Source: a virus (lineage: Duplodnaviria > Caudoviricetes). Taken from it: a stretch of DNA of 64,000 nt. The stretch lies in the IMG/VR virus record IMGVR_UViG_3300037247_001786, positions 352,001-416,000 of that record. The stretch is one strand, 5' to 3'. Below the pieces are notes generated by a model. It saw only the letters and a list, made by a program, of their open reading frames with translations, was not told where the DNA came from and did not search any database. Made by a program: the position numbers and the translations under genes. Below are positions 9,437-59,105 of the stretch, piece by piece (the first letter of the stretch is position 1; the number at the start of each line of letters is the position of its first letter).

Positions 9437-12414
9437 AAACAAGAATCATTGAAAGAACTGGTCCAAGCGGTAGAGTATCATATGTTATACAACAACCTCA
9501 TTTTCTATTTAGATGGTGGTGGGTAGATGCTTGGATCAACAGTATGTGCGGAGCAAACTGCCAAGATTCGTTTGACACAATGGAAGAAGCAAAAGCTAAT
9601 CTATGCTACTTCGATGGGACTCCGACAGTAGAAGTTATTGTAACTGCATAAGAGAAAATAATTATGATATTAACGTATATAACATTGGTATTGTGTCTGA
9701 TATGGATAGCTATCATTCTTATAGGACATGATGGGTACTCTATCAAAGGACCTCTTAAATGGTGGTCGTGCGGAATAGGGATAAGCATCTTCGGATTGCA
9801 AGCCTCTAGTGCTCAAATATGCTTTGGTTTCCCAGAGATATTTACTATCATACTCTTTATCGTGATGACGATTATGCTTGTTACTGTTGCAATTAAAACT
9901 CCTAAAAAGCCTTTACATGAGAGATTGGGCGAATGATAAACCACCATATACCAGAACGATGTAAAACATGTTCGTATCATAGAACATGGTACTGGCCTTC
10001 AAAGCTAGAACATAGGCATTGCTACCATCAGGATAGTTATAGATGTATAGAAAGACCAGGGAACAGTACGTCAATAAAAGACCACTATAGTCCTCGATGG
10101 CGTTGGTTGCTTTGGTGGGGATTAACATTTCAATGGAACAAGTTAGATAAAAAGGAAATAATATGAACAGTATTATAGAAGAAAATAAAGATGTACTAAA
10201 AATACGGTTTAATACATATTATAGGGATGAAGGACAAGATGTAGGAACCGTTAAATTAAAATCATGTGATGAAAATGGGAAATTATTTGAAACACTGTTC
10301 GCCTGCTCAACAATAACAAAAAATTATGTACAGCGAAAAATATATAATTTGATGTTAAAAGAAAGTTGCGAAGTGGAATTAACTATCTCGATAGAACCGA
10401 TTGATCATACATTCATAGCACGATTAATTAATAATGGATTTCGATTAGAAGATGATAATGGAAAAGAGATATGGGGGCAGTACCATGGAGGAATTATTAA
10501 TTGGATGAAAAAATATGAATATCAAGGAAAAGAAGCGTACTTCTTTTTCGAAGTGTTATAAGGAAATATAAAATAGTAGATTCAAAAGGATAATGATATG
10601 GTAACAATACCACAAATAATAAATCAAACTAACCAGATAGCTGATGGGATAATGGCTAATAAAGAAATGAGAGGTTTCTCTGTCGCACAAGAACTAGAGC
10701 TTCAGATAGCTTCCATAGAAGCTGCATCTAAAATTATGCAAGCTATACTTATAGGTAAAGAGATAGATAATATGAGAAGATTTTAAAAGGAACGCTGTGA
10801 CACCTGAACAAGCAATACAATTAAATAAAGAAAGAATATCACTCAAAATTAAAATGGTAGCAGAGCTACTCATATCATTCATGGACGATGTGCTTATCGA
10901 GGAGATAAAGTCTCTGGAAAAAGGAACACCTCAGAAATTTTGTATGAGATATTTCGCAACTACCCACCTTACGAATAAGGATAAAAATCTATTTGTTGAG
11001 CATAAATTTGCAATAGCAAAAAATATAGTGAATCATTATAATGAACACAGATGGGAAGCATATATAATAGAAAATAGTAATCTTGTTATATCCATAGAAA
11101 TACCAGGAGAATAAAATATGATCATAATAATAGTAGCAGCGTACATCTTACTGACAGCCATATGCCTACCTTTTATGATAAACAGCGGAAACTTTGATTT
11201 TAAGTATGATTCTAAATGGACAACTACAAAACAAATAGCAGGACTGTTTCTTGCAGGATGGTTGTTGACAGTGATGGGCATTATATTCGTTATACTCGCT
11301 GCAATGTTCTGGATAGTTATGACTATCTTTGAAATAGAAGGTTAAACTTCGAGTGAAAAGAATATGAATAAAAAAATATGGATAACAAGAAGTCGCAGCC
11401 ATCGATCAGATGGACCAAAATATGTTGTCTCAATATGGTGGATACAAAAACCATTTTGGCACAGTGATGAGAATAATAAATTTTGGTGGTCAACCTGTCT
11501 AGGAGAAAGTGAACTTATATCAACAAAATTAAGTAAACAGTTATTTGGATTAGCACCAAAAGAACATGAAATATATACAGCCGAAGAAACAGATGATGGA
11601 TATAAAATAACACAAAGACAAACAGCAAGAGATTGCTATCGTACTGATGTAGATAGAAAATTAGGTTTGGAATGGTAAAATTTAATACTTGAAAGTGTTT
11701 CCTAAATAAGATATAGTAGTGACATGAACATATGTGAAATAATTGGAATTGGATGTTTACTAGCAGTTGGAGCAGGAATATTAGCTGGTTTTATAATAAT
11801 GATGGCAGGAATAATGGAAGAAAATAAAAGAGACTGGAATGAATAGACGCAACGAAATAATAATTGGAGCATCTATAATAACTCTTATTGCGATAATCCT
11901 TATGCTGTTAATAAGTTCTGTAAGATCAATGACCCCAAGGTGCCTCGAATGTAAAACTGTATCATATAGTACTGAATACTGCGGTAGTTGCGGAGAGTGG
12001 ATGAACCCTCCATATTGTAAAAAATGCGACAGAAGATATTTTAGCGGTTGTAAAAAAGATAAATACTGTGAGGACTGCGGAGAAGAACTTGTAACCTTGA
12101 CAGAGAAAGAATAAAATAATATGAACATATATAAACAAAGATGGAACAAGGCTAAACAACTAGCTAACGAGATAAATGATAGGTACGAAAAAGCCATTAA
12201 AGAATATGGCAATAAATGTATCCTCATGTATAGAGAAATACTCGAAGATGCGAATATCGTTATATATGATGATCAAATTATATTACATGTACCTGGAGCT
12301 AATTTTATATTGTTCATAGATGATCCAGAACAAGATATGGGGTCACTCTCAACGATAAAAGAAATAGAAGAACTATTCGATGAAATTAATATACTCGTAC
12401 CATATAAGGGATAG
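9433..12414 (+). other. Run of small hypothetical CDSs, several predicted membrane proteins
   Basis: Abutting + strand ORFs of 60-130 aa; hydrophobic segments in 9664-9936, 11118-11345 and 11839-12114 (the last with CxxC pairs). Confidence 0.65.
11689..11717 (+). promoter_or_regulatory. sigma70-type promoter
   Basis: TTGAAA-17-TATAGT. Confidence 0.6.
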
Positions 12415-12417
12415 AAG

Positions 12418-12867
12418 ATGTGCATAGAATATAAATTAACAACAGATAAAAAAAAGAAAATACTTGATAAGATAGGCAGAGAAGGAATAAAAGTCTATAA
12501 GATAGTAAGACATGGAGATTGGGGACACTATCCTATATATCGAAATAAACAAACTCCATATGAAGAAGGAGTAAATACCGCCCAAAGAATACAAATAGTA
12601 TCGTGGGACGCAGTATCGTATATGTCAGGCTTCCATTTCTATATGAACAAATATGCCGCGAAAATGACACTAAAGTATGAATGGGAAGATATGGATGATG
12701 GTTATCAATATAAAATTATAGAGTGTATTGTCAAAAAATCATGGGTGACAACGATAGGAGAAGAATACATTTTTAACGACGATGGAAGATATCAAGATCT
12801 CACCCAAGTTATTATCACTAAAAAAGCTATCTTCCCTGTTTTCGCGGAGAATAAAACATGTGTATAA
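12418..12867 (+). CDS. Hypothetical protein, four-copy family
   Basis: GIKVYKIV...SGFHFYMN...IIECIVKKSWVTTIG. Confidence 0.8.
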   Translation: MCIEYKLTTDKKKKILDKIGREGIKVYKIVRHGDWGHYPIYRNKQTPYEEGVNTAQRIQIVSWDAVSYMSGFHFYMNKYAAKMTLKYEWEDMDDGYQYKIIECIVKKSWVTTIGEEYIFNDDGRYQDLTQVIITKKAIFPVFAENKTCV

Positions 12868-13271
12868 ATAGAATAGCAAATAAAGAAAAATGGCTGAAAG
12901 ATAAACCAAAAGTCATAACAGCATATAAAGTAGCAATAGCATGTTATAGTAAAGAACTAGACGTAAGACTATATCCAGTCTTTAATAACGATAAATACTT
13001 TAAAAGAAATAACCTACTCAGAAAAGTTAAATCTGAAAGAAGTGAAAAATACCAACATGTCGATGGATCGAAAAACTCGACATATATAGCATATTACCAC
13101 CTGTTCGCAAAGAGAAAAGACGCAGAGAGACACAGAAACTGGATGGGAGGATCTGTTATAGAATGCACAGTACCAAAAAAATACATAACAGAGATAGGAT
13201 ACCAATACGGACATACAGTAATCGTAACAAGAAAATTCTCCATAGTAGGAGAAGATGAATTCCTAGACTAA
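12858..13271 (+). CDS. Hypothetical protein, four-copy family
   Basis: AYKVA...AYYHLF...VIECTVPKKYITEIG. Confidence 0.75.
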   Translation: MCINRIANKEKWLKDKPKVITAYKVAIACYSKELDVRLYPVFNNDKYFKRNNLLRKVKSERSEKYQHVDGSKNSTYIAYYHLFAKRKDAERHRNWMGGSVIECTVPKKYITEIGYQYGHTVIVTRKFSIVGEDEFLD

Positions 13272-13695
13272 TTACAGAGAAAGAATACATATAAGGAGAA
13301 TTATAATGATATATATTAAAGAAAAAACAGAAGAATTACTGACAATGACACCAGAACAAGCCAGAGAACTTGCAAAAGAACTTAACTATATGGCTGACGA
13401 AACAGAAGATCATGAATACTCATTTTCAACAGAATTATGGATGGAAGGAAGTTTAACGACGGTTAAACCAATGAAGATTATTATAAAAAATATAGATAAA
13501 AATCCAGAAACACTCTTTCCAAGATAAATAGAAAATATGAAACCTATAAAAATAACAAACCCCAAATATAAAGAAATAATAAGAGAACAAACAAAAGAAC
13601 CACTAATACAAAATATAGCAATAGGGTTCGCAGAAGCTCTAAAAGAACTCGGACACAATAACTTCGAAATTATTATAAAAGAATAAGGAAACAGT

Positions 13696-14145
13696 ATGTG
13701 CCTAGAACATAGATTGCCAAAAAATAAAGCAAATAAAATCATAGATAAGATACCACCAGAAGGAATCAAAGTTTATAAAATAGTAAAATGCGGAAGCGTA
13801 CATTACCACCCAATACATAGATATGAATTCGGACCATATAATGAAGGAGTAAATAAAGCACAAACAAAACAAATATCGGCATGGGAAGGGGAAAAATATA
13901 TGGCAGGCTTCCATTTCTATATGAACGAAAAAAACGCTAAATATATACTCAATAAGGAATGGGGAGATTCAGTATATACCTTCAAACTTATAGAGTGCAT
14001 AGTTAAAAAATCGTGGATAACAGCAATAGGACATGAAGTCGTATTTAAAACCGTTCATGGAGATTTCGACGATGTGTATCTTACAACAACAGTCATCGTA
14101 GCAAAAAAAGCCATATTCCCTAAATTTTGCGGAGAAAATAAATAA
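13696..14145 (+). CDS. Hypothetical protein, four-copy family
   Basis: GIKVYKIV...AGFHFYMN...LIECIVKKSWITAIG, close paralogue of 12418. Confidence 0.8.
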   Translation: MCLEHRLPKNKANKIIDKIPPEGIKVYKIVKCGSVHYHPIHRYEFGPYNEGVNKAQTKQISAWEGEKYMAGFHFYMNEKNAKYILNKEWGDSVYTFKLIECIVKKSWITAIGHEVVFKTVHGDFDDVYLTTTVIVAKKAIFPKFCGENK

Positions 14146-14493
14146 TGCTATTTAAAGTATGTATGAGTATAGCCACTATACTATTCTTAATAGTTATAGT
14201 AGTTAATATAGTCTCGTCAATCAAAGAAAAAAAGAAATATGAATATCTCAATGAGAGAGATGATGGATTCACAGGAACAGCGAAAAGATATAGAAAAAAA
14301 CACCCTATTAAAAAATAAGGATAAATATGATAGAAGTAATTAATGAACCAGATGATTGCCCATTCCAGAGAACAGATTATGACGGATTCCCAGATGGATG
14401 TAAGTATGATGAAACTAAATGCTATAATCATAACGAATTCCCAGAGGATTGCCCACTGAATGATGGCGATATTACAGTTACAAAAGGATAAAT

Positions 14494-14613
14494 ATGAAAT
14501 GTAAAAAACATCCAAGATATAAAGGGAAAAATAAAGAACAAGCAAAAAATTGCCCAGCCTGTATCTGTATATATATGAATAGACTATTTAAAGAAAAAAG
14601 GGAAAGACAATGA
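14494..14613 (+). CDS. 39-aa Cys/His microprotein (not in ORF track)
   Basis: Manual translation MKCKKHPRYKGKNKEQAKNCPACICIYMNRLFKEKRERQ; tandem paralogue follows with ATGA overlap. Confidence 0.65.
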   Translation: MKCKKHPRYKGKNKEQAKNCPACICIYMNRLFKEKRERQ

Positions 14614-14726
14614 AATGCAAAAAACACCCAAACTATAAAGGAAATGGAAAACCAAGAAATTGTGCAACCTGTCTATGCATACACCTGGAAAAACAACTTA
14701 AAAAAAGTAGAGAAAATAGAGAATAG
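14610..14726 (+). CDS. 38-aa Cys/His microprotein (not in ORF track)
   Basis: Manual translation MKCKKHPNYKGNGKPRNCATCLCIHLEKQLKKSRENRE. Confidence 0.65.
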   Translation: MKCKKHPNYKGNGKPRNCATCLCIHLEKQLKKSRENRE

Positions 14727-14769
14727 CTCTTTTTCCCGCGAAAAATAATAAATATAAGGATCAATACAA

Positions 14770-14934
14770 ATGACAATAAACAATATAAACAGAGAAACAG
14801 AAATGGTATATGATAACCTAAAAAGAATAACCAGCAATATACCATCAAAAGATACACTAATAGAAGCAACTGCTAAAATAATGCAAGCTAAAATTATAGC
14901 TGAAGCAATAAGTAACATAAGGAACATAACATGA
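14770..14934 (+). CDS. 54-aa protein, paralogue of 10598-10786 (not in ORF track)
   Basis: IEATAKIMQAKIIA versus IEAASKIMQAILIG. Confidence 0.55.
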   Translation: MTINNINRETEMVYDNLKRITSNIPSKDTLIEATAKIMQAKIIAEAISNIRNIT

Positions 14935-15627
14935 GGAAAACAAAAGTTATTAAAGCCTCTCCAGCAGCACTCGAACAAAGGATAGATACTTGGATAAAAT
15001 GTAACCCAAGAGCAGAAATAATTAGAACAAGTGCTGCAGCCATAAATGAATACAATGTTCTATATGTGATAATATATGAAGAAAAACCAATATAACACCG
15101 ATACCTCAAATAATTTGCCAGAGTGGTAAAAAATGGAATTTATAAGAATATGAAATATAATACTTGTCAAAATCATAAAACTCCTGACCAAATAGAAAAA
15201 GAAGATCATCGCTCTATATATCAAAAAAGATGCCTACTGTCTATAGGAGATAAAATAAAGGCTACTACCGAATTTAGAAAAGTAATGATTGGCTCATATA
15301 GACCAAAAGAACCTGTATTCGAGGGTGGCAAAATCATAGAGTTTAAAGATCCATACGACTCAGATGGAAAAACAGCACACTCATTGGCAAATGTAGAAAT
15401 GCCTTGCGGTTGTACACATCGTATCAATACAGCTTGGCTTGTCAAAATCTAACCCTTTTTCGCGAGAAATAAAAATCCCCATTAATAACCCAAAAATCCA
15501 TATAAACTACAATATACACAAGATTAATATATAATGACTACAATACTTAATATAATAGCAACTATAATATATGGACTAATCATATTTAGCGAACACATAT
15601 ATATAAAGATAACACAAAGATAACAAT

Positions 15628-15858
15628 ATGAAGAATAAATTCACATGAGGACACGCTAACGACGAATCCAACATAAGACTAAATGGAGAACACTATCTCG
15701 AAATATCTAACTATGGACATACAAAAGAAGTAATAGATAGAGTAGAACATATCACCGAACTACTAAACCAAACAACAACTGCTGATGTAATACCAGAGCC
15801 TCCACAACCTCCACCAAAGAGAGTAATCATAGAGGGAGTAAAGATAATACAAGAATAA
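15628..15858 (+). pseudogene. ORF interrupted by in-frame TGA at codon 7
   Basis: ATG AAG AAT AAA TTC ACA TGA GGA CAC..., then the frame stays open 69 more codons to TAA. Confidence 0.4.
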
Positions 15859-16242
15859 CAAACAAAGCACAGATCAAACCACAGGGCTTATACCCCCTTA
15901 TCAGAATACCAGTTAATAGCTCAAAAATCAACTATGGCAATCAATAGGGAAAATAATGGAACTAAGTGGTACAGAGTGGTGTAAAAGGGTGAAAAACCCC
16001 ATTATTACCCAAAAACCCAATTAGAGGTCAAAAACCCAATAAATATTGCTCACAAACCTATAACCCAAATATAATAAGAAAAATGCTTATTATTGATACA
16101 CAAGCACCAAATAGGAATATCTTTAAATAATTCTCATCGACCGATCTCGATAAACCGACTCTATTTACCCTTAATATAATAATAAGAATTATTTTTATTC
16201 CTTATATAAAAGTAATGATACACCTTATATCAAGTACTATGG

Positions 16243-16470
16243 CACTCTTTGTCATATTTGCCAGAGTGACAAAAAAACTGTTGTCTGGTATAAGTTGTTT
16301 TCAGTTGCACCAAGTTATTACCACTCTGGCAGTTATTTGATACAATTATTTGCCAGAGTGTGAAAAAACACTTCTTATATATGTAGCAGTCATATATTTT
16401 GTTAAAAACTGTCACTCTGGCACTGTATGGGTCATATTTATTTGCCAGAGTGGTAAAAAGTGCTTTTTAT
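16243..16470. repeat. Three units of inverted box pairs with 92-bp period; candidate replication origin
   Basis: Forward boxes at 16258/16350/16442, reverse CACTCTGGCA at 16322/16413, partial reverse CACTCT at 16243; coincides with compositional skew flip. Confidence 0.7.
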
Positions 16471-16482
16471 AAGAAATAATAC

Positions 16483-16511
16483 TTGAAAGTGATTTATCAT
16501 TATGATATAAT
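16483..16511 (+). promoter_or_regulatory. sigma70-type promoter
   Basis: TTGAAA-17-TATAAT with TG upstream of the -10. Confidence 0.8.
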
Positions 16512-16551
16512 CACGTTCTGTATTTGAGTTTATTTTTTGGAGAGAAAAGTT

Positions 16552-17232
16552 ATGAGTGACGTAGTAAGAGATTATTCAGATGTCAAGGACACAGTAGAGT
16601 TATCTATTGGTGATCGCACCAAGATAACTAATCGCAGAGGAAACGTTATCACTCCTCGCAAATACCATATGGCAGATGATCAGATAGAGGAAGCACGTAA
16701 TCGCTGGAGAGAGTTGATAAAAGATGTTCCTGCTTCTATTCGCCATAAGGCCAGGCGATCGTTCTTTAATCCATTTAGGGTTAATGGTTCTTATTTTGGT
16801 CAAGTTCAAGCACTGTATCTACTTGGTGCTAATGAGTGGCATACTTACTCATCTGTTCGTGGTAAGATGCAGGAGGACATGAGTACCCGTAAGAGTCCTC
16901 TCAACACTTTGAATAGTTGGGAGAAATTTGCTACTAGGAGTGCTCGTGAGGGAGCTACTTCTACTAAAGATTTAATGGGTAGAATAGTTAGTAACTTCCG
17001 TACTCTTCAGCGTTTAGGTGGCACTAACCCTTATGGTTATAAGCTTAAGCAGTTGTTATCGAGTGTTGATGCTCGTCGTAGAGTGGATAGTATTTGGGAG
17101 TTTAGGTTAGATACTACTTGGACTGATATGGACTTGGTTAAGCCTTTTTATGATATATCTGCTTATGTTGTTCCTAAAGGTAAGAAGGTTGATACTGTAG
17201 TAGTTTCTACAGATGTTCCAGTTGTTGACTGA
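16552..17232 (+). CDS. Hypothetical protein, possible winged-helix DNA-binding protein
   Basis: GGAG RBS favours ATG 16552; Arg/Lys-rich, helical core followed by a beta-hairpin-like SVDARRRVDSIWEFRL; fold call is inference. Confidence 0.6.
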   Translation: MSDVVRDYSDVKDTVELSIGDRTKITNRRGNVITPRKYHMADDQIEEARNRWRELIKDVPASIRHKARRSFFNPFRVNGSYFGQVQALYLLGANEWHTYSSVRGKMQEDMSTRKSPLNTLNSWEKFATRSAREGATSTKDLMGRIVSNFRTLQRLGGTNPYGYKLKQLLSSVDARRRVDSIWEFRLDTTWTDMDLVKPFYDISAYVVPKGKKVDTVVVSTDVPVVD

Positions 17233-17306
17233 TTGGGAGAGTATGCACTGAATTGGGTATACCCTTTTTCTTTTCCGCGAAAAAATGGGTTTTAAGGGTA
17301 AAAACA

Positions 17307-18513
17307 ATGATTAAGTACTATTTAAAAAGATATGGTTATGCGGCATGGTTAGGTCTTGCACTGGGTATGTTCGCCAATATAGGTATATTTGATATTGATT
17401 TCTGGCTTATTCTTGTGCCTTTTTACTTCTTACTAGGTTGGAGAGATCAATGATTGAAGCACTGATTAAGATATTATGTATATGGTGTATCCTTGGTTTT
17501 ATAGCCCCTATGCTCACTCCTGACCCTGAAACAAAGAAGGGGGCTATTATCCAGTTAATAACTTTTGGTCCCATTATGTGGGCTTGTGTAGGCGTAAGTA
17601 CGTTAATTGATATTTTTTCGCGGATAAAAAAATGGCTAAATGGTTAAAAATTCCCAAGACATATGGTGGACTTCAGGATAATATTGCCTATGAGAAGGCA
17701 TTATCTACTCCCACTAAAGAAGAGAAGATGATAAGTCTATTTAATTTTAGCACCAAAATCTTTAAGTTCTTATCTTGCCTATGGTTAGCACTGATTATCT
17801 TAGGTTTTAGTTTAATGTCTCTTGCACCGAAAGTAGCTGGAGTTATAGGAGCTACAGGTAGTTTCCTCTTTGTAGTTAATTTTATTAGTTATATTTGTTT
17901 AATAATGATGATATTGTATATGAAAGGTCTAAGTAATGAGTAACATAATTGAATGGATTAAAGACAAAGATAATGAGTTAGTGGCTACTATTGTCCTCTT
18001 TGTAGTTGGGATATTAATAGTACTGTTTGGAGTTATATCTATTGCACTGACAAGTTCAGGGATATTTATTGTCTTTGGATCCTTGTTAATGCTAATGGGT
18101 GTTATAATTGTAATATTCGGGTTCGTTACTCTGATGGAGTTCCTAGGCGGTCTATAGCACTGAATAGGAAACCACTATATGTAGCGGTGCAGACTACCCC
18201 CAATACCCACTACATATAGTACATACAACATATGGTGGGTATGCAATGGGTAATACCCACTACATATAGTATATTGAAAGGTAAAAAGATGCAAAAAATT
18301 GCAAAATGGTTAAGAGATGAAGTTATCTATAAGTTAGTAGCTAGTGTTTTCATGTTTTTGGGTGGAATTTCTACTCTATTTATAGCTATTCACTTTTGTA
18401 ATAATTCTAAAATTGGTATGGGAGTAGTTCTCCTTATATTAGGTTTAGTTTTTAGTGTTCTTGGGATTATTCCTTTGATATCTAAGTGGTGTAATTGGCA
18501 GGATATAGAATAA
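17307..18513 (+). other. Cluster of five small predicted membrane proteins
   Basis: ORFs ending 17453, 17647, 17943, 18157 and 18513 each have about two long hydrophobic segments. Confidence 0.65.
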
Positions 18514-18882
18514 ATGAGTGATTCTATTCAGGATAGTTATCAAGATGGTCATGAATCTTATTATGACGATATATTAAGATATAAGAATCCTTATAGTGGA
18601 TTGGAGTCTGAGTCTTGGTTTCGTGGTTGGGATGAAGCTGAAGAGTATCATCGGTTATTCACTGATAATCAGACCTTCAGGGATCAGATTAAAGAGTTAA
18701 AAGAAGAGATAAAAGAGTTAGAAGATAGTGTTAGTGGGTTCAAGAAAAGTATGATCCAGATTAATACAAATATATTATCTTCTATAGATCACATAAGAAA
18801 GAGTAAGTTTCTTTATTTTCACCGCGAAAAATTGGTATCTAAGCTTAAAAATATAAATTTGCCAGAGTGTGAAAAAAGCTAA
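18514..18882 (+). CDS. Protein with RMF-like N-terminal motif and a coiled coil
   Basis: YQDG...NPY.....SWFRGWDEA resembles the ribosome modulation factor motif; IKELKEEIKELE heptads. Confidence 0.45.
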   Translation: MSDSIQDSYQDGHESYYDDILRYKNPYSGLESESWFRGWDEAEEYHRLFTDNQTFRDQIKELKEEIKELEDSVSGFKKSMIQINTNILSSIDHIRKSKFLYFHREKLVSKLKNINLPECEKS

Positions 18883-18891
18883 TTTATAGAG

Positions 18892-19731
18892 TTGTATAAT
18901 AAATATGCGGAGAGAGAAATGTACCAATCGTTAAATAGTATAAAATATGTAGAAGTATCCCGTTTATCGACTGGTATACCTGAATTAGATTGGATATATG
19001 GAGGAGATGGTACTAATGTAGGTCTCCCTCAAGGTAAGATAAGTTTATGGAGTGGTCCATCAGGTTGTGGTAAGAGTAGGTCATTAATTACTCTTTCTAA
19101 GAAAATGAGTTCCGCTGGTCATAACGTTCTTTACTTTCAGAATGAAGTTAATTTGAGTGATTTTCGTTCTTGGGCAGGCAATGAACCCTTGGCTCCGAAT
19201 CTTTATGCATCGGATACAACTACTTTGGCTGGACAAGTAGATGAGATAACGAAGAGCAAAGCAAGAGTTGCTATCATTGATAGTATCGGATTGATTAAGG
19301 AATTCAAGACAGGACATGAGACTAATGTAAGAAACATTTATGCTCATTACCGTGCATTAACTAAAAAGACTGGTGTTCATGTTATCTTTGTTTGTCAGTT
19401 GAATAGTAATTATAAGATAAAAGGTTCATCTGAAATCCTGTATTTAGCTGATATTTCAGTTGATTTAGACAGGCATGTAGTTAATAAGAAGATAATTAAG
19501 AACCACTTTGTGATAGGCATCAATGGTCGTAATGGTGGTAAACATCGTTATGGCGAGATGGGCGATGACATAACTACTCTTTGGAGGTATTCTCCTGGTG
19601 GAGCTATATGTATCTCTAATAATAGGGGATCCTCTGATATAGTTCCTTATGGTCATATTGATAAAAAGGTAGTTGATACTGTTTCTGGATCTACTTTCTT
19701 TGTGCCGAAACTAAATTTTAAATTTGCTTGA
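18892..19731 (+). CDS. radA: RadA/Sms-like RecA-family ATPase (no Zn finger or Lon-like domain)
   Basis: STGIPELDWIYGG, Walker A SGPSGCGKS, Walker B AIIDSI, VIFVCQL...IKGSSEILYLAD. Confidence 0.8.
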   Translation: MYNKYAEREMYQSLNSIKYVEVSRLSTGIPELDWIYGGDGTNVGLPQGKISLWSGPSGCGKSRSLITLSKKMSSAGHNVLYFQNEVNLSDFRSWAGNEPLAPNLYASDTTTLAGQVDEITKSKARVAIIDSIGLIKEFKTGHETNVRNIYAHYRALTKKTGVHVIFVCQLNSNYKIKGSSEILYLADISVDLDRHVVNKKIIKNHFVIGINGRNGGKHRYGEMGDDITTLWRYSPGGAICISNNRGSSDIVPYGHIDKKVVDTVSGSTFFVPKLNFKFA

Positions 19732-19756
19732 AAAGTGAAATTAGATATATTATAGT
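19728..19756 (+). promoter_or_regulatory. sigma70-type promoter
   Basis: TTGAAA-17-TATAGT. Confidence 0.65.
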
Positions 19757-19764
19757 GTTGTTAT

Positions 19765-19879
19765 GTTACGAAGGGGTGGTACCCTAGAGAGATGTAAAAA
19801 CTAATTTGTGATGAACCCATCCCTTAGCGGGGAATGGCTGAAAGTCACCGTTAAACTCGCATGACCAAATGCTCGTAAT
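19765..19879 (+). ncRNA. Candidate structured small RNA
   Basis: Starts just after the promoter; ends pair (GTTACGA/TCGTAAT); internal CCATCCC-ttagc-GGGGAATGG hairpin; no ORF. Confidence 0.4.
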
Positions 19880-19894
19880 ATTTTAAAAAAAGCT

Positions 19895-19922
19895 TTGAAA
19901 GTGATTTATATTATGCTATAAT
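19895..19922 (+). promoter_or_regulatory. sigma70-type promoter heading the tRNA cluster
   Basis: TTGAAA-16-TATAAT with extended TG. Confidence 0.7.
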
Positions 19923-20185
19923 GCATTTTCGAGTCAAGGGCAAGAGATTGTTGCTTGGCAGTGATTTTATTTTTTCAGCGATTTAAAATTACAACAGAAA
20001 CTAGGTAATAGGGTCTGAACATAAACCCTATCATCTTTAAAAAATATTATTTTAGTTAAAGTTATTTTAGTTAAAGTGACGATATAGTAGTATATCAACG
20101 ATATGCCGATAAGTGAGAGACGACTTGGGGCGTCGATGCCGAGAGATAGCCGTCCGACATATTTGTTGATGAATAGTAGTATACT

Positions 20186-32056: not shown

Positions 32057-32638
32057 ATGGACCTATTTATACAAAATATGGATAAGATAGAAAAGATAGC
32101 TGAAAAGATGGTAAATTATTGGCATGGGAAATTTGAAGTCGAAGAATTGATAGATACTGCTTATATTAAGTATCGTACAGCTATCGAGAATAATCCCTCA
32201 TTAGTGGATAGTGTTTTTTCTAATCTAACAACTTTTTTATGGCGTGTAAAAAATGATATGAAGGATTATATAAAAAAACAAACTGGGATAAGAACAAAAG
32301 AAAAGAAAAAAATGCTTGCTAACACTATTACTCATTCTTTTCAACGTCCAGATGACGATAACGGCAATCACGGTTGCATATCTTTCTTTGAACCTCAAAG
32401 TATTGACAAAGGTCAGGAAAGTGTGGACAATTGTGAACTTCTTAATGAAATTTTTAAAAAAGTAGAATTAACTGATAGAGAGTGGAAAGTTATACAGGGC
32501 TATTTTTGGGAAGGAAAAACAACTAAAGAAGTGGGTATAGAACTTGGGTCTGCCGATAAAAATGCTTCTGGAACAACTTGTAATATAAAAAATAAGATAG
32601 TAAAAAAACTTCAAAAACAAGCGTTATTATTGGTGTAA
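32057..32638 (+). CDS. sigma70-family sigma factor-like protein 1
   Basis: Region-2-like IEKIAEKM...EELIDTAY...FLWRVKNDMKDYIKK; region-4-like LTDREWKVIQGYFWEGKTTKEVGIELG. Confidence 0.75.
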   Translation: MDLFIQNMDKIEKIAEKMVNYWHGKFEVEELIDTAYIKYRTAIENNPSLVDSVFSNLTTFLWRVKNDMKDYIKKQTGIRTKEKKKMLANTITHSFQRPDDDNGNHGCISFFEPQSIDKGQESVDNCELLNEIFKKVELTDREWKVIQGYFWEGKTTKEVGIELGSADKNASGTTCNIKNKIVKKLQKQALLLV

Positions 32639-32640
32639 AT

Positions 32641-33204
32641 ATGGATTTCTTTTTTGAACATTTAAAAGGCATACAACAGATGGCTCGTAAGATTTGCAGG
32701 TCTTATCATGGCAAGTACGAGGTAGATGAATTGATAAATGTAGCCTGGATGGATTATCAAGTAATGATAGAAAAGTATCCTTTTTGGACAAGGAGTTACC
32801 GTTATCCCGAATTAATTCTTTATAAAAGAGTCAGATATGATATGTTAAATTATATCAGATATGATCTAAAATTAAAGAAAAAAAAGATATTAGAGAAAAA
32901 TGGTTCTCACGTTCCACTGTTTATTAGTTATAATGCAGAGGATAAAGATGGGGAAAAGTTATCTTCTTTCACAGGTTCGTATTCTGATAAAGGTTTTGAC
33001 AAAGTCGATAATCTTGAGTTATTAGAATATCTTAGAACTCGCATGGGATTAACTGATAGAGAGTGGAAGATACTTAAATATTATTTTTATAATGGGTACA
33101 CAGACAGATTAATTGCCGAAAAAATAAATATATCAAAATCAAGGGTATCGCAGTTAAGAAATCAAGCTCTCAAAAAATGTAAGGAACACTTAATAGGAGT
33201 ATAA
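32641..33204 (+). CDS. sigma70-family sigma factor-like protein 2
   Basis: DELINVAW...YKRVRYDMLNYIR; LTDREWKILKYYFYNGYTDRLIAEKINISKSRVSQLRNQALKK region 4 HTH. Confidence 0.85.
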   Translation: MDFFFEHLKGIQQMARKICRSYHGKYEVDELINVAWMDYQVMIEKYPFWTRSYRYPELILYKRVRYDMLNYIRYDLKLKKKKILEKNGSHVPLFISYNAEDKDGEKLSSFTGSYSDKGFDKVDNLELLEYLRTRMGLTDREWKILKYYFYNGYTDRLIAEKINISKSRVSQLRNQALKKCKEHLIGV

Positions 33205-33871: not shown

Positions 33872-33903
33872 AAAGAGAGAGGCACTATGTCTCTCTTTTT
33901 TTT
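33872..33903 (+). terminator. Terminator closing the tRNA cluster
   Basis: AAAGAGAGAGGCA-CTATG-TCTCTCTTTT followed by T run. Confidence 0.75.
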
Positions 33904-34977
33904 CGCGAAAAATAATTGCCAGAGTGTGAAAAAATAGGATTTATGATATTATGAAAAAGATATTAAGTAAAGTAGAATTGAAATTTGGTAGCGACTCTAT
34001 CATAGATGGGAACCATCTATCTATAGATATCAACTTATTCGAAATTACATTAACTGACGATTCTATAGTATATAACGTTGGAATAAATTTTCTTAGTAGT
34101 CAAACTATTAAGAGTTTGTTAAAATTAGAAGATTATAGTTGTACAGATATGAAAGAAGCATTTAAGAGATTCCGACAACTACATACTTCTTTAAAAGTAC
34201 TATTCGAAAATATGGAGATAGAAAGGTAGAATAATGTATTTATGTAAAATATCAAAAAGAGAAGTATGTAGGAATGGTAATTGCAAGGACACGGTAGTAC
34301 ATGAGCTTGTGTCTTGTAGTAGCTCTCTTCTTCCAGGAAATGCAAAAAAGTGGGTTAAGAAACATTTCTCATCAGCATATAAGAACCATGTAATGAGTAC
34401 TTTCCATGCGGTTCCTGGATTTAAAGCATTGAATATATCTAACGATGATGGTAGTCCTCATAATACATATAATGGGAGAGCTACTATGTTTGATGAGTAT
34501 GGTCGTCCAGTATATATAATTGCTATTGATGTATATGCAGTTGAAGTAGTCAATTAATTTATAACGGGAAATATTATGAATGAACAAGATGATCTAGTAT
34601 TAGAAGAGATGTTAACATGAAAGTCTTTATTACAAGAGATGAAGATAGCGACGAAATATGGTTGTGGCTTAAGCCCCGCAAGGGTTCATTTAAACCAGTA
34701 ACTCTCGAAGGTTGTGATATGATCAATTTTCAACGAAGAGACAATATGAATGAAATAGATAAGTATTGTGGCTATACTAAATCTGATTTTAAAAAGAAAT
34801 TTGGAGTTCCTCTTATTAATAAGAAAACTTGCAAAAGTATCGACTTGCCAGATGATTTAGTTCTAGACAATAAATTAACATTAAGTCCTCTGATTTTTGA
34901 CTAATTTGCCAGAGTGTGATTTTTTTGATATTATGATATTGTTGAAACGAATATTATTATTATAAAAGGAATTAAGC

Positions 34978-39704: not shown

Positions 39705-41834
39705 ATGCATAGCTTTATTGGTATTATTACCTATGGACAGAACATAGGAGAAGCAAGAGACAAGGCAAAGAAACTATCAGACGCTATGATAGGTGAAGTA
39801 GCATACCCTTTTGACTATGGTGGGACTAGTGGCGAAACAATGTTGTTCTCTTCTCAAAAAGGAGTTAAACTTGTCGGTCAAGCTATGGAAGCGACAAAGA
39901 AACATTTCCTATATGCTATAAATATGGTGAGAGAACATCTTGAAAAATTCACAAATGAAGATATAGCCAAGAGTGAAAATATAGTATATGACGAAAAAGA
40001 TACTACATATAATACTGGTATGGCTAGACATTGGATGTTTAAAGCTGGACAGTATAAAGGAGGAGAAATCTGCTTATACGATAACGACGGAGAAGGTATT
40101 AGAACTCCAGAACATTTAGACAGAGTCTTGAAGCAATGGGATAAGCCGGTATCTGGAGAAAAGATATATGTCACTCCATTTAATATGCATTTCTAATTTG
40201 CCAGAGTGACAAAAATATAAACTTATAGAAGTGTTAATACTAACACTGAATAGGAGTTGTAAAATGCCATTGGGTAAAGTAATATATTTTCAGAAAAATC
40301 TTGATACGGAAGTAAAAGTCGCTATCATTATTAAAGAGGAATATGATCATGAGGGGGTATGGGGTCATATCGCTTGCGAACTTGATCATAGTCCAGATGA
40401 GGAAGAGATTAGAGTAGCAAGTGTTGACAGGAATGTTATTATTCCTTTTCCGAAAAATGAGGAAATAGATAAAAATCTAAAATACTATAAAGAAGCTAAA
40501 CATTTTCTTGATAGATTGGTGGATTTTGACACTATGTCAAAGGACGAGATAATAGCTGTATGCGATATGACAGCGATAATTGCAAGACAAGAACTTTAAT
40601 GGAGATAGAATTATGAGTTATGAAACGAGTGCTAGTTACGCTGACACGGTAGAAATCGATTTTGTTAAGGCTCAATGTCCTGAAGAGTGGGAAAAATTTA
40701 ATCTTGCTTTGTTAGCTGGGGAAATTGATTTTGATGCTTTTTGTCAATGCACTTCTATTGAGGATGAATTAGATGCAGATGAGCCAGAAGCCAAAGCGAT
40801 TGATGAAGCATATGAAGCTCTTCAAGATGCTTTTAGGATAAAAGTGGCTCTTACTCTTAATATAGTCTATAACGAAAAAGACGACAGAGGTGATGAATTA
40901 GAGGGAGGCTCCTTTGCCGTCGATGGGGTTTGGGTTCTTTCCGAGGGTGGAAGAAATCATAAAGATAGTATTGAAAGACTATTTTGGACTAATGGCGGAT
41001 AATATGATATATCATATAAAACAATATGGTAGGATAACTGTTACTCATATAGATAGGGAGATGATCTCAGAAGAAGATATAAAAGAGATTACTCTTAAAC
41101 TAGTAAAAAAAGCTAAAGAAGCTATTAAAAAGAGTAAAATGGTTAGTGGTGCTTTTGATGTAGAAGTATGTCAAACTAACGGAGAAGTAGTTGATAGTTT
41201 TTTAAGCGGAACTTACTAATTTGCCAGAGTGGTAAAAAAAGAAAGTTATAGTAATATGAAAGCATACGATAAAAAAGAAAAGTTTCCCGAACATTGGAAG
41301 AGCGTAAGAATATTAGGAGAGATGTGTGTTGATATTGCTACTCATAGTATTTTAGGGGTAGAGTATAAATCCGATAAGAGGGCTGGTAGATATGGTTTAA
41401 GACTATCAGATAAAGATATTTTCGAGTTCTATAATCCTCATAATGACGGAGTTATGAGTCATGGGGGTACAAAGTTGGATGCTGTAATAGGAGCCGAATG
41501 TGTCTATCTAAACCACTTCATCTTTGAAAATGAAAACGAATTGTGGGCATGGGTAGCAGAGTGGGGGGGACTTACTCATTTGCAAGATATACTTGAATTA
41601 GAGGAAAAGAAAACCAAAAACAAAGAGATTCTATTCCATAATATATCCTATACTCTTAAAGATACAGATTTAGATATAGACTTTATGGAAGTAGAACAGA
41701 TTGAATATATGATAGGGCAAGGTTTCAGCGAGGGAGAACTGTCTATGACAGACCCAGATAATCCAGAAGAGACTTTTATGGGTTATTGGAAAATAGATAA
41801 CATTTGCCAGAGTTGTAAAAAAAGTATTTTATAG
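39705..41834 (+). other. Box-headed units of small hypothetical CDSs
   Basis: ORFs ending 40196, 40599, 41002, 41219 and 41834, delimited by boxes at 39641, 40198, 41221 and 41804. Confidence 0.7.
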
Positions 41835-41853: not shown

Positions 41854-43164
41854 ATGGCTAATGTATTAGAACACAAGAAATTTATTTGCGTATGTTTTGG
41901 CGATACGAATAATAACAAGGTATGGCAATATACTTTATACGATGATGGTACCGCTCTAACAGAATGGGGGAGAGTCGGGAAAAAACTACAAAGTAAGATG
42001 ACAACCGAATCTAAAGCCCTTGCCAAAATGAGGGAAAAGACAAGAGTAAATAACAAACCAGATAAACTCTATACAGAAGTTATGGTAGCTGAGGGAGTAT
42101 CTTCGTCAAGCACTGCTGTTGTAGCGTCCTCTAATTTAAAATCTATTGCTAACAAGCAAATAGATATTAAAGACCCTACTTTGAAAGAGTTAGTAGAATT
42201 TCTTGTAAAAGAGAATATCCATAATATTATGGAAACGTCCAAAGGCTCTATCCAGTACGATACTGCATCTGCTCAATTCAAGACACCATTAGGCGTTATT
42301 CTACCTGATCAAGTTTCTGACGCGAGAGATTTATTAGACGATATGGCTGACTATGTAGTTACAGGAGATTTCAATAATAGGAAATTCGCCAGATTATTAA
42401 ATGAATATCTGCGTTTAATCCCACATGATATTGGTATGTCTAAAATCAGTCCGAAACTTATACTTCCAGATGATGACGCATTACAGACCGAGAATAACTT
42501 GTTAGATGGGCTTGACGTTTCTTTTAATGATATACAAACTGGAGCTACAAAAACTAAAACTACGAAAAAGAAAAAAGATAATACTCCTAAACTTTTCGAT
42601 GTTACTCTTGATATTGTTCGCGATAGGAAAGAGATTAGTCGTATAAAAAAGTATTTCAATGACACAAAGTTAAATATGCATGTAACGAGTGGGTATCGAG
42701 TTAAAAAGATATATGAAGTAAAGATAGGGGCAATGCACTCATCTTATGAAAAATCGGGTTTACCGATAGGTAATATTATGGAATTATGGCATGGCACTCG
42801 CTGTTCTAATTTACTTTCGATTCTCAAAAAAGGGCTAATAATACCTCCATCGCAGTCAAGCCATGTGACCGGACGGATGTTTGGTGCCGGACTTTATTTT
42901 TCTGACCAATCGACTAAGGCTCTGAATTATGCCACTAATTTTTGGAATTCTTCTGGTTCTTCAAAGCGTATTTTTATGTTCTTGTGTGACGTTGCTATGG
43001 GCAAATATCATGTTCCGTCTGGAGGTTGGGGTAGCGGTTATCCTAAAAGAGGTTTTGACTCTACTTTTGCCAAAGCAAATGTATCTTCGGTTAGGAATAA
43101 CGAAATGATAGTTTATAAGTTACCACAAGCCAATTTAAAATATCTTTTAGAATTTGAAGAATAA
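41854..43164 (+). CDS. PARP-family ADP-ribosyltransferase (WGR + helical + catalytic domains)
   Basis: TEWGRVG WGR motif; LWHGTR.SN..SIL..GL, GRMFGAGLYF, KALNYA, FLCDVAMG, NNEMIVY..Q.NLKYLLEF give an intact H-Y-E triad. Confidence 0.93.
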   Translation: MANVLEHKKFICVCFGDTNNNKVWQYTLYDDGTALTEWGRVGKKLQSKMTTESKALAKMREKTRVNNKPDKLYTEVMVAEGVSSSSTAVVASSNLKSIANKQIDIKDPTLKELVEFLVKENIHNIMETSKGSIQYDTASAQFKTPLGVILPDQVSDARDLLDDMADYVVTGDFNNRKFARLLNEYLRLIPHDIGMSKISPKLILPDDDALQTENNLLDGLDVSFNDIQTGATKTKTTKKKKDNTPKLFDVTLDIVRDRKEISRIKKYFNDTKLNMHVTSGYRVKKIYEVKIGAMHSSYEKSGLPIGNIMELWHGTRCSNLLSILKKGLIIPPSQSSHVTGRMFGAGLYFSDQSTKALNYATNFWNSSGSSKRIFMFLCDVAMGKYHVPSGGWGSGYPKRGFDSTFAKANVSSVRNNEMIVYKLPQANLKYLLEFEE

Positions 43165-59040: not shown

Positions 59041-59105
59041 TTGCCAGAGTAGTAAAAAATTAGTATTATAGAAGTGTTAATACTAACACTGAATAGGAGT
59101 ATATA

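What the first reader, a model, noticed from the sequence alone, without database searches (positions are those of the whole stretch)
11000..20000. Sharp A/C-rich to G/T-rich strand-composition flip centred on 16.3 kb although genes stay on one strand
Seen (hand counts): 13501-13560 has A33 C11 T12 G4; 17041-17100 has A14 C6 T20 G20. Codons left of the box cluster tend to end in A/C and those to the right in T. The bias appears to strengthen towards the cluster and fade within several kb. Established: leading strands are keto (G+T) rich, so this polarity marks a bidirectional origin. Inference: because gene orientation does not change, the effect is replication-derived; its steep local character suggests prolonged single-strandedness or repeated initiation near this site.
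Basis: partly seen in the sequence, partly recalled or inferred. Interest (0 to 1): 0.7.

Follow-up and report, generated by a model that had tools for sequence, protein, structure and literature searches.

The report
Local strand-skew flip, candidate phage origin
In a 461-kb marine-sediment phage the DNA composition switches abruptly from A/C-rich to G/T-rich at one conserved non-coding element. Related phages keep the same switch at the same element, so it most likely marks a place where DNA replication or strand opening starts locally; it is not the boundary of the whole genome's replication arms.

Summary
The keto-skew step at window 16.2-16.3 kb is the largest in the 460,978-bp genome (0.39 over 2-kb arms; best of 200 block shuffles 0.23). 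It shows at third codon positions, four-fold sites, two-fold sites and non-coding DNA, and all the genes concerned lie on the + strand.

The step is not an assembly artefact or a recent inversion. Seven relatives keep it, some with only about 40% identity in the neighbouring protein. In six phages the skew minimum lies within about 120 bp of the first copy of a phage-specific promoter box. Two relatives lack the element and lack the flip. Homologous genes become more A/C-rich the closer they sit to the element (12 of 13 pairs).

The element has phased short repeats, a very easily melted AT-rich stretch and three inverted box pairs about 92 bp apart. Next come a host-type promoter, a winged-helix-like protein and a RecA-superfamily ATPase.

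The origin reading is only partly supported. The polarity and anatomy fit, but the reversal fades within 10-20 kb, and the genome-wide skew minimum is 322 kb away. The box is also the upstream half of about 70 promoters.

My best reading (0.4) is a local or secondary initiation site. The rivals are not excluded. The scan noted a similar sawtooth in another jumbo phage.

The parts
11300..15452 (+). Left flank: about 13 small + strand genes of unknown function. Their silent sites become steadily more A/C-rich towards the element.
   Evidence: AT3 up to +0.65, GC3 skew down to -0.75, with normal first-position skews; four-fold sites A 0.59, T 0.20. Spearman rho of keto3 against position is -0.76; gene content is not conserved in relatives.
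15115..15125 (+). First isolated copy of the 11-nt box (TTGCCAGAGTG), just upstream of the gene at 15150-15452. The box block starts here; the genome has one other exact + strand copy, about 27 kb upstream (window -12010).
   Evidence: 55 copies in the window and 78 in the genome (up to 1 mismatch), nearly all on + and confined to genome 367,115-427,507.
15453..15932 (+). A/C-rich spacer. It holds the least stable 80-bp duplex of the window (15492-15571) and an open frame without a start codon (about 15650-15858) whose end resembles the C-terminus of a relative's gene.
   Evidence: A 0.45, C 0.20, G 0.12, T 0.23 over 15453-16200; duplex-stability rank 1 of the 64 kb. Reading for the frame.
15933..16020 (+). 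Conserved block of four to six short G-rich repeats (core GTGG) spaced about 10 bp apart, followed by a C/A-rich motif. The C/A-rich motif also occurs 520 bp upstream (15477).
   Evidence: many invariant columns across four phages; the same kind of phased repeats in L005 and L011; single-copy in the genome, apart from the twin C/A motif.
16131..16155 (+). Conserved 25-nt block, single-copy in the genome.
   Evidence: alignment columns about 335-360. (its only close copy is here).
16160..16239 (.). AT-rich, easily melted stretch directly left of the first box. The T-A cumulative minimum (16188) lies inside it. It is a candidate unwinding element.
   Evidence: fourth least stable 80-bp window of the 64 kb..
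16240..16452 (.). Three forward boxes (16258, 16350, 16442; 92 bp apart). Each is preceded by a reverse copy (partial at about 16243; 16322-16332; 16413-16423). These are the only reverse copies in the box block. The keto-skew minimum is at 16278.
   Evidence: relatives keep three forward copies 91-94 bp apart with reverse partners, although their box sequence differs. The reverse copies lack the downstream -10-like half at the right distance (reading).
16483..16511 (+). Host-type promoter (11 of 12 consensus positions, extended -10) in front of the 226-aa gene.
   Evidence: invariant in four phages; the same promoter type occurs about 60 times in the genome without any skew step.
16552..17232 (+). 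226-aa conserved protein of no known family. The model has a winged-helix-like core. Its AT3 (-0.47) is the genome minimum.
   Evidence: more than 100 homologues; pLDDT 89.7; no Foldseek match; best Z 6.0 to winged-helix domains, below the tool's bar..
17233..18918 (+). G/T-rich spacers, three small genes (17632-17943, 18232-18513, 18514-18882) and a box promoter at 18859.
   Evidence: AT3 -0.15 to -0.26, GC3 skew +0.24 to +0.55; the spacers shift towards keto..
18919..19731 (+). 270-aa RecA-superfamily ATPase (AAA_25/KaiC; weakly nearest RadA/Sms). It is the last gene of the strongly G/T-rich block.
   Evidence: 73-78% identical in L001, L002 and L004; keto3 0.18-0.48 in six phages.

Best explanation
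The flip marks a fixed non-coding element at which the two DNA strands are treated asymmetrically in opposite directions. Most likely this is a local (secondary) replication initiation site. Proposed mechanism, inferred and not shown: the duplex opens at the AT-rich stretch beside the repeats and box pairs, and synthesis or strand displacement proceeds outwards on both sides. The strand whose 5' end points to the element is then the leading-type, keto-rich strand on each side. Leftward movement is short-lived: it runs head-on into the + strand genes and into rightward forks arriving from upstream, so the reversal fades within 10-20 kb. The very high local amplitude implies either near-complete fork polarity next to a fixed start in a genome otherwise replicated from many places, or unusually long single-stranded exposure near the start. 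What is shown: the flip, its size, its anchoring on the element, its dependence on position and its conservation. What is inferred: that replication is the cause.
For: 1. The polarity is that of diverging leading strands, at silent sites of every codon family and in non-coding DNA.

2. It is not caused by sense transcription. Left-flank genes are on the + strand yet A/C-rich. Genome-wide, the few - strand genes have the opposite coding-strand skew to + genes, so the baseline bias follows the DNA strand and not the gene direction.

3. It is anchored on the element. The skew minimum lies within about 120 bp of the first forward box in the window, L001, L002, L004, L005 and L011. In L005 the element lies 4.5 kb upstream of the conserved gene, and the flip moves with the element. 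L006 and L012 lack the element and the flip.

4. It depends on position. Left-flank gene content differs between phages. In 12 of 13 homologous pairs the copy nearer the element is more A/C-rich (mean difference -0.23), and rho is -0.73 to -0.76 in three phages. Orthologues of the 226-aa gene have keto3 of 0.26-0.41 beside a strong element and -0.03 to 0.22 elsewhere.

5. The anatomy looks like an origin: phased repeats, two of the four least stable duplex stretches of 64 kb, inverted repeats, and adjacent winged-helix-like and RecA-superfamily genes.

6. The site is one of three V-shaped minima of the cumulative third-position skew (46.3, 368.7 and 428.9 kb). Between the last two, the skew falls linearly over 60 kb (rho -0.64, p 9e-14). 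Upward jumps followed by a linear fall are read as origins and fork-polarity gradients in skew N-domains (PMC3320577).
Against: - The reversal is local. The + strand is keto-rich again 10-20 kb to the left, and the genome-scale minimum is at 46.3 kb.
- The amplitude is about four times the baseline, which fork direction alone does not give.
- The 46.3-kb site, the classical candidate, shows no comparable local peak.
- The replicative DnaB-type helicase gene is 178 kb away.
- The boxes are promoter parts used about 70 times, and two ECF-size sigma factors are encoded in the block, so the cluster may be purely transcriptional.
- Four-fold and two-fold sites disagree on G/(A+G) on the right (0.21 against 0.49). 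One simple mutation spectrum does not give this, so some codon selection may contribute.
- The winged-helix match is weak (Z 6 or less).
- No replication data of any kind are available.
Confidence: 0.4

Rival explanations
1. A promoter hub with divergent transcription or R-loops, without replication. Very strong rightward transcription (three box promoters plus a host-type promoter) keeps the + strand displaced on the right. Leftward antisense transcription from the reverse boxes does the same to the - strand on the left. Deamination of the displaced strands would then write the skew.
For: Four tandem rightward promoters sit exactly at the flip. Reverse box copies occur only here and are kept in relatives. 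The element is the first member of the box regulon in the window and in most relatives. In L010 boxes occur on both sides and the flip is weak. An earlier scan note describes a promoter-anchored keto/amino sawtooth in another jumbo phage.
Against: The reverse boxes lack the -10-like half at the consensus distance, and no leftward -10 is conserved (reading). Antisense transcripts would have to run 7-20 kb across + genes. Genome-wide, gene direction has almost no effect on silent-site skew. About 60 host-type promoters and about 70 box promoters elsewhere cause no step. The G/T-rich block on the right crosses a terminator-like site after the first gene.
Confidence: 0.2
2. Selection rather than mutation. 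The site is a boundary between temporal gene classes with different codon or mRNA requirements. Genes in front of the tRNA array would be tuned to host tRNAs (T- and G-ending codons). The genes on the left would be tuned to the phage's own UNN tRNAs (A-ending codons) or to unstructured A-rich mRNA.
For: The phage encodes 33 tRNAs, with UNN anticodons for the four-fold families present plus extra CUN ones. The T/G-rich genes lie directly upstream of that array and behind a host-type promoter. G/(A+G) rises at two-fold sites on the right but not at four-fold sites, a codon-specific signal. The site is also the border between genes driven by host-type promoters and genes driven by box promoters.
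Against: The shift is uniform over all codon families. It extends to non-coding DNA and to first and second codon positions. T over C in two-fold pyrimidine codons is the opposite of the usual translational selection. The strongest bias falls on tiny, poorly conserved accessory genes. The same gene families change composition with their distance from the element.
Confidence: 0.12
3. A physical genome end, packaging start or recombination hotspot. The circular-looking assembly would hide fixed termini or a pac site at the element, and end-linked processes (end-primed synthesis, resection and repair) would write the local skew.
For: The contig's 'terminal repeat' is only a 110-bp overlap inside a tandem repeat, so the true ends are unknown. 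Synthesis starting at the ends of a linear genome gives the same polarity as an origin at the junction (inference). An earlier scan report on another phage found that a proposed origin was a packaged-genome end.
Against: Resection of a break or end from 5' to 3' exposes the strands that are A/C-rich here. Under the deamination model that predicts the opposite polarity (inference). No read-level data show ends here: only contigs were available. No terminase gene was seen next to the site (not searched exhaustively).
Confidence: 0.12
4. Gene flux. The left flank would be an insertion hotspot that keeps receiving foreign or inverted genes with A/C-rich coding strands. The gradient would then be an age (amelioration) gradient and not a local process.
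For: Left-flank gene content turns over fast between relatives. The - strand genes of this genome have a similar, weaker coding-strand composition (A 0.49, T 0.33 at four-fold sites). A second A/C-rich island at genome 92.3-96.2 kb lies beside a LAGLIDADG endonuclease gene.
Against: The pattern recurs in seven phages that differ by up to about 60% in protein sequence, each with different genes. Conserved (old) non-coding DNA inside the element is also A/C-rich. It does not explain the excess G/T on the right in conserved core genes. The one paralogue outside the flank (about 20 kb left of the element) has keto3 -0.17, close to the farther flank copy, so it does not settle the point.
Confidence: 0.08
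5. An assembly chimera or junction.
For: None found. The source run's long contig was not returned when reads were laid, so the window's own assembly could not be re-checked directly.
Against: Independent assemblies from other samples (contigs of 155 kb, 255 kb and 31 kb) carry the same order of left-flank-type genes, element, 226-aa gene and ATPase, with the same flip. A 290-nt contig from another study spans 16139-16428 with 5 differences.
Confidence: 0.01

Closest known systems
Skew jumps at replication origins: bacterial oriC, and skew N-domains of mammalian genomes (PMC3320577; PMC2764438)
   Same: There is an upward jump of the T-over-A plus G-over-C skew at a fixed site, independent of gene direction. 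It is followed (368.3 to 428.6 kb) by a linear fall to negative values and a second jump. This is the shape that is read as fork-polarity gradients between origins.
   Different: The scale is kilobases rather than megabases or whole replichores. The amplitude at silent sites is far larger (about +/-0.3 to 0.6). The reversal on the left covers only 10-20 kb of a 270-kb interval. No replication data exist for this phage.
Transcription-primed phage origins: the T7 primary origin (two phage promoters plus an AT-rich region) and T4 oriF/oriG (a middle promoter plus an unwinding element). This comparison is from my own knowledge and was not checked in a paper here.
   Same: A cluster of phage-specific promoters lies next to an easily melted AT-rich stretch. 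The site lies in a genome transcribed almost wholly in one direction.
   Different: Here the melted stretch lies upstream of the forward promoters, not downstream. Each promoter box has an inverted partner. No comparable local skew is known to me for T7 or T4. Origin function is untested.
Iteron-type plasmid origins with an autoregulated winged-helix Rep gene (pPS10, F, P1, R6K). This comparison is from my own knowledge.
   Same: The order is the same: direct phased repeats, an AT-rich stretch, inverted repeats in front of the promoter, then a gene for a protein with a winged-helix-like core.
   Different: The protein has no sequence or clear fold match to Rep proteins. The inverted repeat is also the upstream half of about 70 promoters. 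The repeats are short (about 10 bp period), not 17-22-bp iterons.
Strand asymmetry of vertebrate mitochondrial DNA, which scales with time spent single-stranded. This comparison is from my own knowledge.
   Same: The silent-site skews are very large and graded with distance from a start site. This is the only well-known case of comparable amplitude that I can name.
   Different: The mitochondrial gradient spans the whole genome and one strand. Here it is local and mirrored on both sides of one element.
Promoter-anchored keto/amino sawtooth noted by this scan in another uncultured jumbo phage (e1-5362348). That report's closest known match was GRINS (PMC8256042), a paper I did not read.
   Same: Silent positions swing between A/C-rich and G/T-rich on one strand, with jumps at promoter-motif sites, and relatives keep the pattern (as that note states).
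   Different: That phage is reported to have teeth every few kb. Here two or three large teeth occur in 461 kb, and about 130 other promoters cause no jump. I did not examine that genome.

Membership tests
Genome-scale bidirectional replication origin (replichore boundary) | The strand skew changes sign at the site, with keto-rich strands diverging | tested here: met
   minimum at 16278; third-position keto skew is -0.31 to the left and +0.32 to the right.
Genome-scale bidirectional replication origin (replichore boundary) | The reversed skew persists along the whole arm as far as a terminus | tested here: not met
   the + strand is keto-rich again from about 20 kb to the left, and for 250 kb beyond; the global cumulative minimum is at 46.3 kb.
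Genome-scale bidirectional replication origin (replichore boundary) | Gene orientation diverges from the site | tested here: not met
   all genes on both sides are on the + strand. Divergence occurs at about 46-47 kb.
Local or secondary origin (initiation site) | Repeated candidate binding sites next to an easily unwound stretch, conserved in relatives | tested here: met
   phased repeats, three inverted box pairs at a 91-94 bp period, and duplex-stability ranks 1 and 4 of the 64 kb.
Local or secondary origin (initiation site) | An initiator and a helicase or loader encoded nearby | tested here: inconclusive
   only weak winged-helix likeness (Z 6 or less); a RecA-superfamily ATPase whose nearest hits (RadA/Sms, KaiC) fall far below the family cut-offs.
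Local or secondary origin (initiation site) | Replication actually starts there (copy-number peak, nascent strands) | not testable with these tools
   Only assembled contigs of metagenomes were available.
Transcription-primed phage origin (T7 / T4 oriF-oriG type) | A phage-specific promoter firing into a downstream unwinding element | tested here: inconclusive
   Forward boxes point away from the AT-rich stretch. Reverse boxes point into it but lack the -10-like half at the consensus distance.
Iteron plasmid-type origin with a Rep gene | A Rep protein of the WH1-WH2 fold | tested here: inconclusive
   No Pfam, PHROG or NCBIfam hit. No Rep chain appears among the 50 rows shown by the wide structure search.
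Skew N-domain-like sawtooth | An upward jump, then a linear fall through zero to the next upward jump | tested here: met
   from 368.5 to 428.4 kb, rho -0.64, p 9e-14, fitted +0.23 to -0.11; the next jump is at 428.6 kb. The skew is flat over 100-345 kb.
GRINS (genetic repeats of intense nucleotide skew) | The skewed DNA is a repeat family inside genes | not tested
   No repeat search of the flanks was run and the paper was not read. Only two paralogous genes were seen in the left flank.

The most novel reading that the evidence does not exclude
Huge phages of this group carry a dedicated non-coding element where the duplex is held open, or initiated again and again, in both directions. This would resemble a mitochondrial D-loop, built from promoter boxes turned into inverted pairs. 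It would write silent-site strand asymmetry far stronger than I know of in any other double-stranded DNA phage, and it would reshape the composition of whatever genes land next to it. Alternatively, an undescribed strand-biased repair or recombination process is loaded at such elements. If so, the same process would explain the sawtooth noted in another jumbo phage.
Probability: 0.25. Interest if true: 0.8.

Novelty: new variant of a known kind. Interest (0 to 1): 0.6.

Why it matters
Nobody has mapped how phages of 400-500 kb start replication, and none of this group is cultured. A conserved, sharply located element with a mutational footprint gives a concrete site to test, both in metagenome-derived DNA and in cultured jumbo phages with similar patterns.

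The footprint is far stronger than ordinary replication skew and is graded over kilobases. If it is mutational, it measures a local process such as fork polarity or single-strand exposure, and that process also drives the amino-acid make-up of neighbouring accessory genes. It also warns against one practice: cumulative-skew minima in huge phages need not be whole-genome origins. This genome has three such minima.

Tried and rejected
- Nucleotide search of the phage collection with 14-19 kb found no match. Pattern-based scans of viral contigs with the 226-aa protein and the ATPase found no relatives. Relatives came from the protein search and contig look-ups instead.
- Rfam scan of 11-20 kb at E up to 1 found no family.
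- Generic terminator and promoter scans were at chance level, apart from the host-type promoter at 16483.
- Sequencing runs: no RNA holder is listed. The five holders are kept as contigs only. Laying four of them gave fragments, no spanning record from the probable source run, and no information on molecule ends.
- Foldseek of the 226-aa model against PDB found nothing at E up to 0.001.
- I tested whether host-type promoters in general cause skew steps. They do not.
- I tested whether the conserved non-coding motifs recur at the other two skew jumps (96.7 and 428.6 kb). They do not, except for one 12-nt AT-rich word shared with 428.67 kb.
- Recent inversion or transfer of the left flank is rejected as the main cause, because the pattern is kept in phages whose silent sites are saturated.
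- A model in which an A/C-rich baseline is overlaid by transcription-driven keto bias is rejected, because - strand genes have A/C-rich coding strands.
- Paralogues of flank genes elsewhere in the genome: only one was found, and it was uninformative.
- Differences between the window and near-identical contigs cannot be polarised without an outgroup, so no substitution spectrum was derived.

Full report
**Context**

The window is bases 352,001-416,000 of a single 460,978-bp virus record, about 34% G+C. The record is classed as complete with 'direct terminal repeats'. Those repeats are only a 110-bp overlap inside a tandem repeat, so the assembly is circular-looking and the physical ends are unknown. 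Genes run on the + strand from about 47 kb to the end and on the - strand at 10-45 kb.

**Checking the observation**

AT skew is +0.3 to +0.46 with GC skew near 0 or negative at 12.5-16.1 kb. AT skew is -0.1 to -0.18 with GC skew +0.2 to +0.34 at 16.5-18.5 kb. The cumulative minima lie at 16278 (keto), 16188 (T-A) and 16262 (G-C).

I called 657 genes with a simple codon-usage caller and split composition by codon position.
- First positions are G- and A-rich on both sides, as everywhere in this genome. The small left-flank ORFs are therefore real + strand genes, and gene orientation does not change.
- Third positions flip. Left-flank genes have AT3 +0.13 to +0.65, apart from one 54-codon gene at 0.00, and mostly negative GC3 skew (as low as -0.75). 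Right-flank genes have AT3 -0.15 to -0.47 and GC3 skew +0.21 to +0.55.
- The genome's extremes of AT3 (both signs) and its minimum GC3 skew face each other across this site.

At four-fold sites the left flank has A 0.59 and T 0.20, the right flank A 0.23 and T 0.61, and other + genes A 0.33 and T 0.45. At two-fold purine sites G/(A+G) is 0.11, 0.49 and 0.28 for the same three sets. At two-fold pyrimidine sites T/(T+C) is 0.68, 0.82 and 0.77. Non-coding DNA follows the same direction, and the shift is uniform over all codon families.

The keto-skew step is the largest in the genome at arm lengths of 2, 4 and 8 kb, both for all bases and for third positions alone. At 2 kb it is 0.386, against 0.237 and 0.211 for the next two. 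It exceeds every one of 200 shuffles of 500-bp blocks, whose largest value was 0.229.

**What sits at the flip**

The 'boxes' are the upstream half of a two-part promoter: the 11-nt box, about 14 nt, then a -10-like TTATAGT. The window holds 55 copies and the genome 78. Nearly all are on the + strand, lie directly in front of genes or tRNAs, often follow a terminator, and are confined to genome 367,115-427,507. Two ECF-size sigma-70 family factors are encoded inside that block.

The site of the flip is special within this block. It has three forward boxes exactly 92 bp apart, and each is preceded by a reverse copy. These are the only reverse copies in the block. To their left lie:
- an AT-rich stretch that is the fourth least stable 80-bp duplex of the 64 kb (the least stable one lies 670 bp further left);
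- a conserved 25-nt block;
- a run of short G-rich repeats with a period of about 10 bp.

To their right lie:
- a near-consensus host-type promoter;
- a 226-aa protein of no known family;
- three small genes;
- a 270-aa RecA-superfamily ATPase.

The 226-aa protein folds confidently (pLDDT 89.7). It has no Foldseek match and only weak likeness to winged-helix DNA-binding domains (Z 6 or less). A 33-tRNA array follows.

**Relatives**

The 226-aa protein has more than 100 homologues in metagenomes. I fetched ten loci around nine of them.
- Four phages with 62-64% identical protein share an alignable non-coding region of about 650 bp. It has the same order of parts and three forward boxes 91-94 bp apart, although the box sequence is different in each phage.
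- The skew profile is nearly superimposable in L001, L002 and L004, and in the much more distant L007 and L011 (39-42% identity): about -0.25 at -2 kb and about +0.15 at +0.5 to +1.5 kb.
- L005 is the key case. Its element lies 4.5 kb upstream of the conserved gene, and the flip is at the element, not at the gene.
- L006 and L012 have no such element and no flip. L010 has boxes on both sides and only a weak flip.
- The cumulative minimum falls within about 120 bp of the first forward box in six phages.

These are independent assemblies from other samples. A chimera is therefore excluded. So is a recent inversion or transfer, because silent sites are saturated at these distances.

**Position or gene content?**

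Left-flank genes are poorly conserved and shuffled between phages. Where homologues sit at different distances from the element, the nearer copy is more A/C-rich in 12 of 13 pairs (mean difference -0.23). The third-position skew correlates with position at rho -0.76, -0.76 and -0.73 in three phages. Orthologues of the 226-aa gene have keto3 of 0.26-0.41 beside a strong element and -0.03 to 0.22 otherwise. The composition therefore follows distance from the element.

**Genome-wide frame**

Third-position keto skew on the + strand is about +0.1 over 100-345 kb. It falls from 348 kb to -0.31 at 364-368 kb, jumps to +0.32, and declines linearly over 60 kb to -0.18 (rho -0.64, p 9e-14). It then jumps again at 428.6 kb, the end of the box block.

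The few - strand genes embedded among + genes have the opposite coding-strand skew, so the baseline bias follows the DNA strand and not transcription. The cumulative curve has its global minimum at 46.3 kb, where gene orientation diverges. It has two further V-shaped dips that bottom at 368.7 and 428.9 kb. The site is therefore not the boundary of the genome's replication arms. It is one of three skew minima, and the sharpest.

**Mechanism**

The polarity, the independence from gene direction, the anchoring on a conserved repeat-rich and easily melted element, the dependence on position, and the sawtooth all fit a fixed initiation site with fork-polarity gradients. This is the reading given to skew N-domains, where upward jumps mark origins and the skew is proportional to fork polarity (PMC3320577). 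I commit to that at 0.4, as a local or secondary origin.

The difficulties are the large amplitude, the short reach to the left, the lack of a similar peak at 46.3 kb, and the fact that the boxes are promoter parts. The rivals and their odds are:
- divergent transcription or R-loops at a promoter hub (0.2), weakened because the reverse boxes lack a -10 half and about 130 other promoters cause no step;
- selection at a boundary of temporal gene classes in front of the tRNA array (0.12), supported by one codon-specific signal but contradicted by the non-coding and position evidence;
- a hidden genome end, packaging site or recombination hotspot (0.12), which cannot be tested without reads;
- gene flux (0.08);
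- an assembly chimera (0.01).

**Comparison and novelty**

Skew jumps at origins are textbook, so this is a variant of a known kind. Three things are unusual. The skew is very strong and steep but local. The element is built from promoter boxes arranged as inverted pairs. And the architecture is kept while the box sequence itself changes from phage to phage.

A follow-up on another jumbo phage reported a promoter-anchored keto/amino sawtooth, which I did not examine.

Noticed in passing
window 15115 to the window end (genome 367,115-427,507): A block of about 60 kb in which nearly every gene or tRNA has its own copy of one two-part promoter (the 11-nt box, about 14 nt, then a -10-like element). 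About 70 copies, all on the + strand. Relatives have the same layout with a different box sequence.
   Followed up: partly
window 32057-32638 and 32641-33204: Two adjacent ECF-size sigma-70 family factors, both above the NCBIfam superfamily cut-off, sit behind a box promoter. They are candidates for reading the box promoters. A third, full-length sigma-70-like gene lies at genome 47.3-48.0 kb, beside the global skew minimum.
   Followed up: partly
e.g. window 40240-40260, 52270-52290, 59085-59105, 61140-61160: Many box-promoter transcripts begin with the same leader: a short perfect hairpin followed by a conserved word that ends in the ribosome-binding site. Related words (core GCACCGAAT) are repeated in the non-coding element of the relatives.
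   Followed up: no
e.g. window 15455-15475, 17262-17285, 33885-33915, 62780-62808: Terminator-like hairpins are often followed by a fixed palindromic word (T-run, CGCG, A-run) just before the next promoter box.
   Followed up: no
genome 92.3-96.2 kb (L008:4355-8119): A second strongly A/C-rich island of + strand genes (third-position keto skew -0.28). It includes a subtilase and is followed by a LAGLIDADG endonuclease gene and the third-largest skew step of the genome (96.7 kb). None of the conserved motifs of the 16.2-kb element occur there.
   Followed up: partly
genome 428.3-428.75 kb (L009:8300-8750): The second-largest skew step of the genome lies at the end of the box-promoter block, in a 380-bp non-coding gap that ends in two host-type promoters. 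It shares one 12-nt AT-rich word with window 16189.
   Followed up: partly
window 15650-15858: An open frame of about 70 codons with no ATG, GTG or TTG start. Its proline-rich end resembles the C-terminus of the gene just left of the element in L001 and a stretch in L004. It is either a decayed gene or one with an unusual start codon.
   Followed up: no
window 41854-43164: A 436-aa protein with PARP catalytic and PARP regulatory domains and a weak WGR match, behind a box promoter.
   Followed up: no
genome 1-110 and 460,869-460,978: The record's 'direct terminal repeat' is a 110-bp overlap inside a tandem repeat of a coding-like sequence. It says nothing about the true genome ends.
   Followed up: yes
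window 13560-15710: In contigs of other marine samples that are 90-99% identical, six of the twelve listed differences in the A/C-rich flank are A/C exchanges, which are normally rare. The right flank shows mostly transitions. The numbers are small and the changes cannot be polarised.
   Followed up: no
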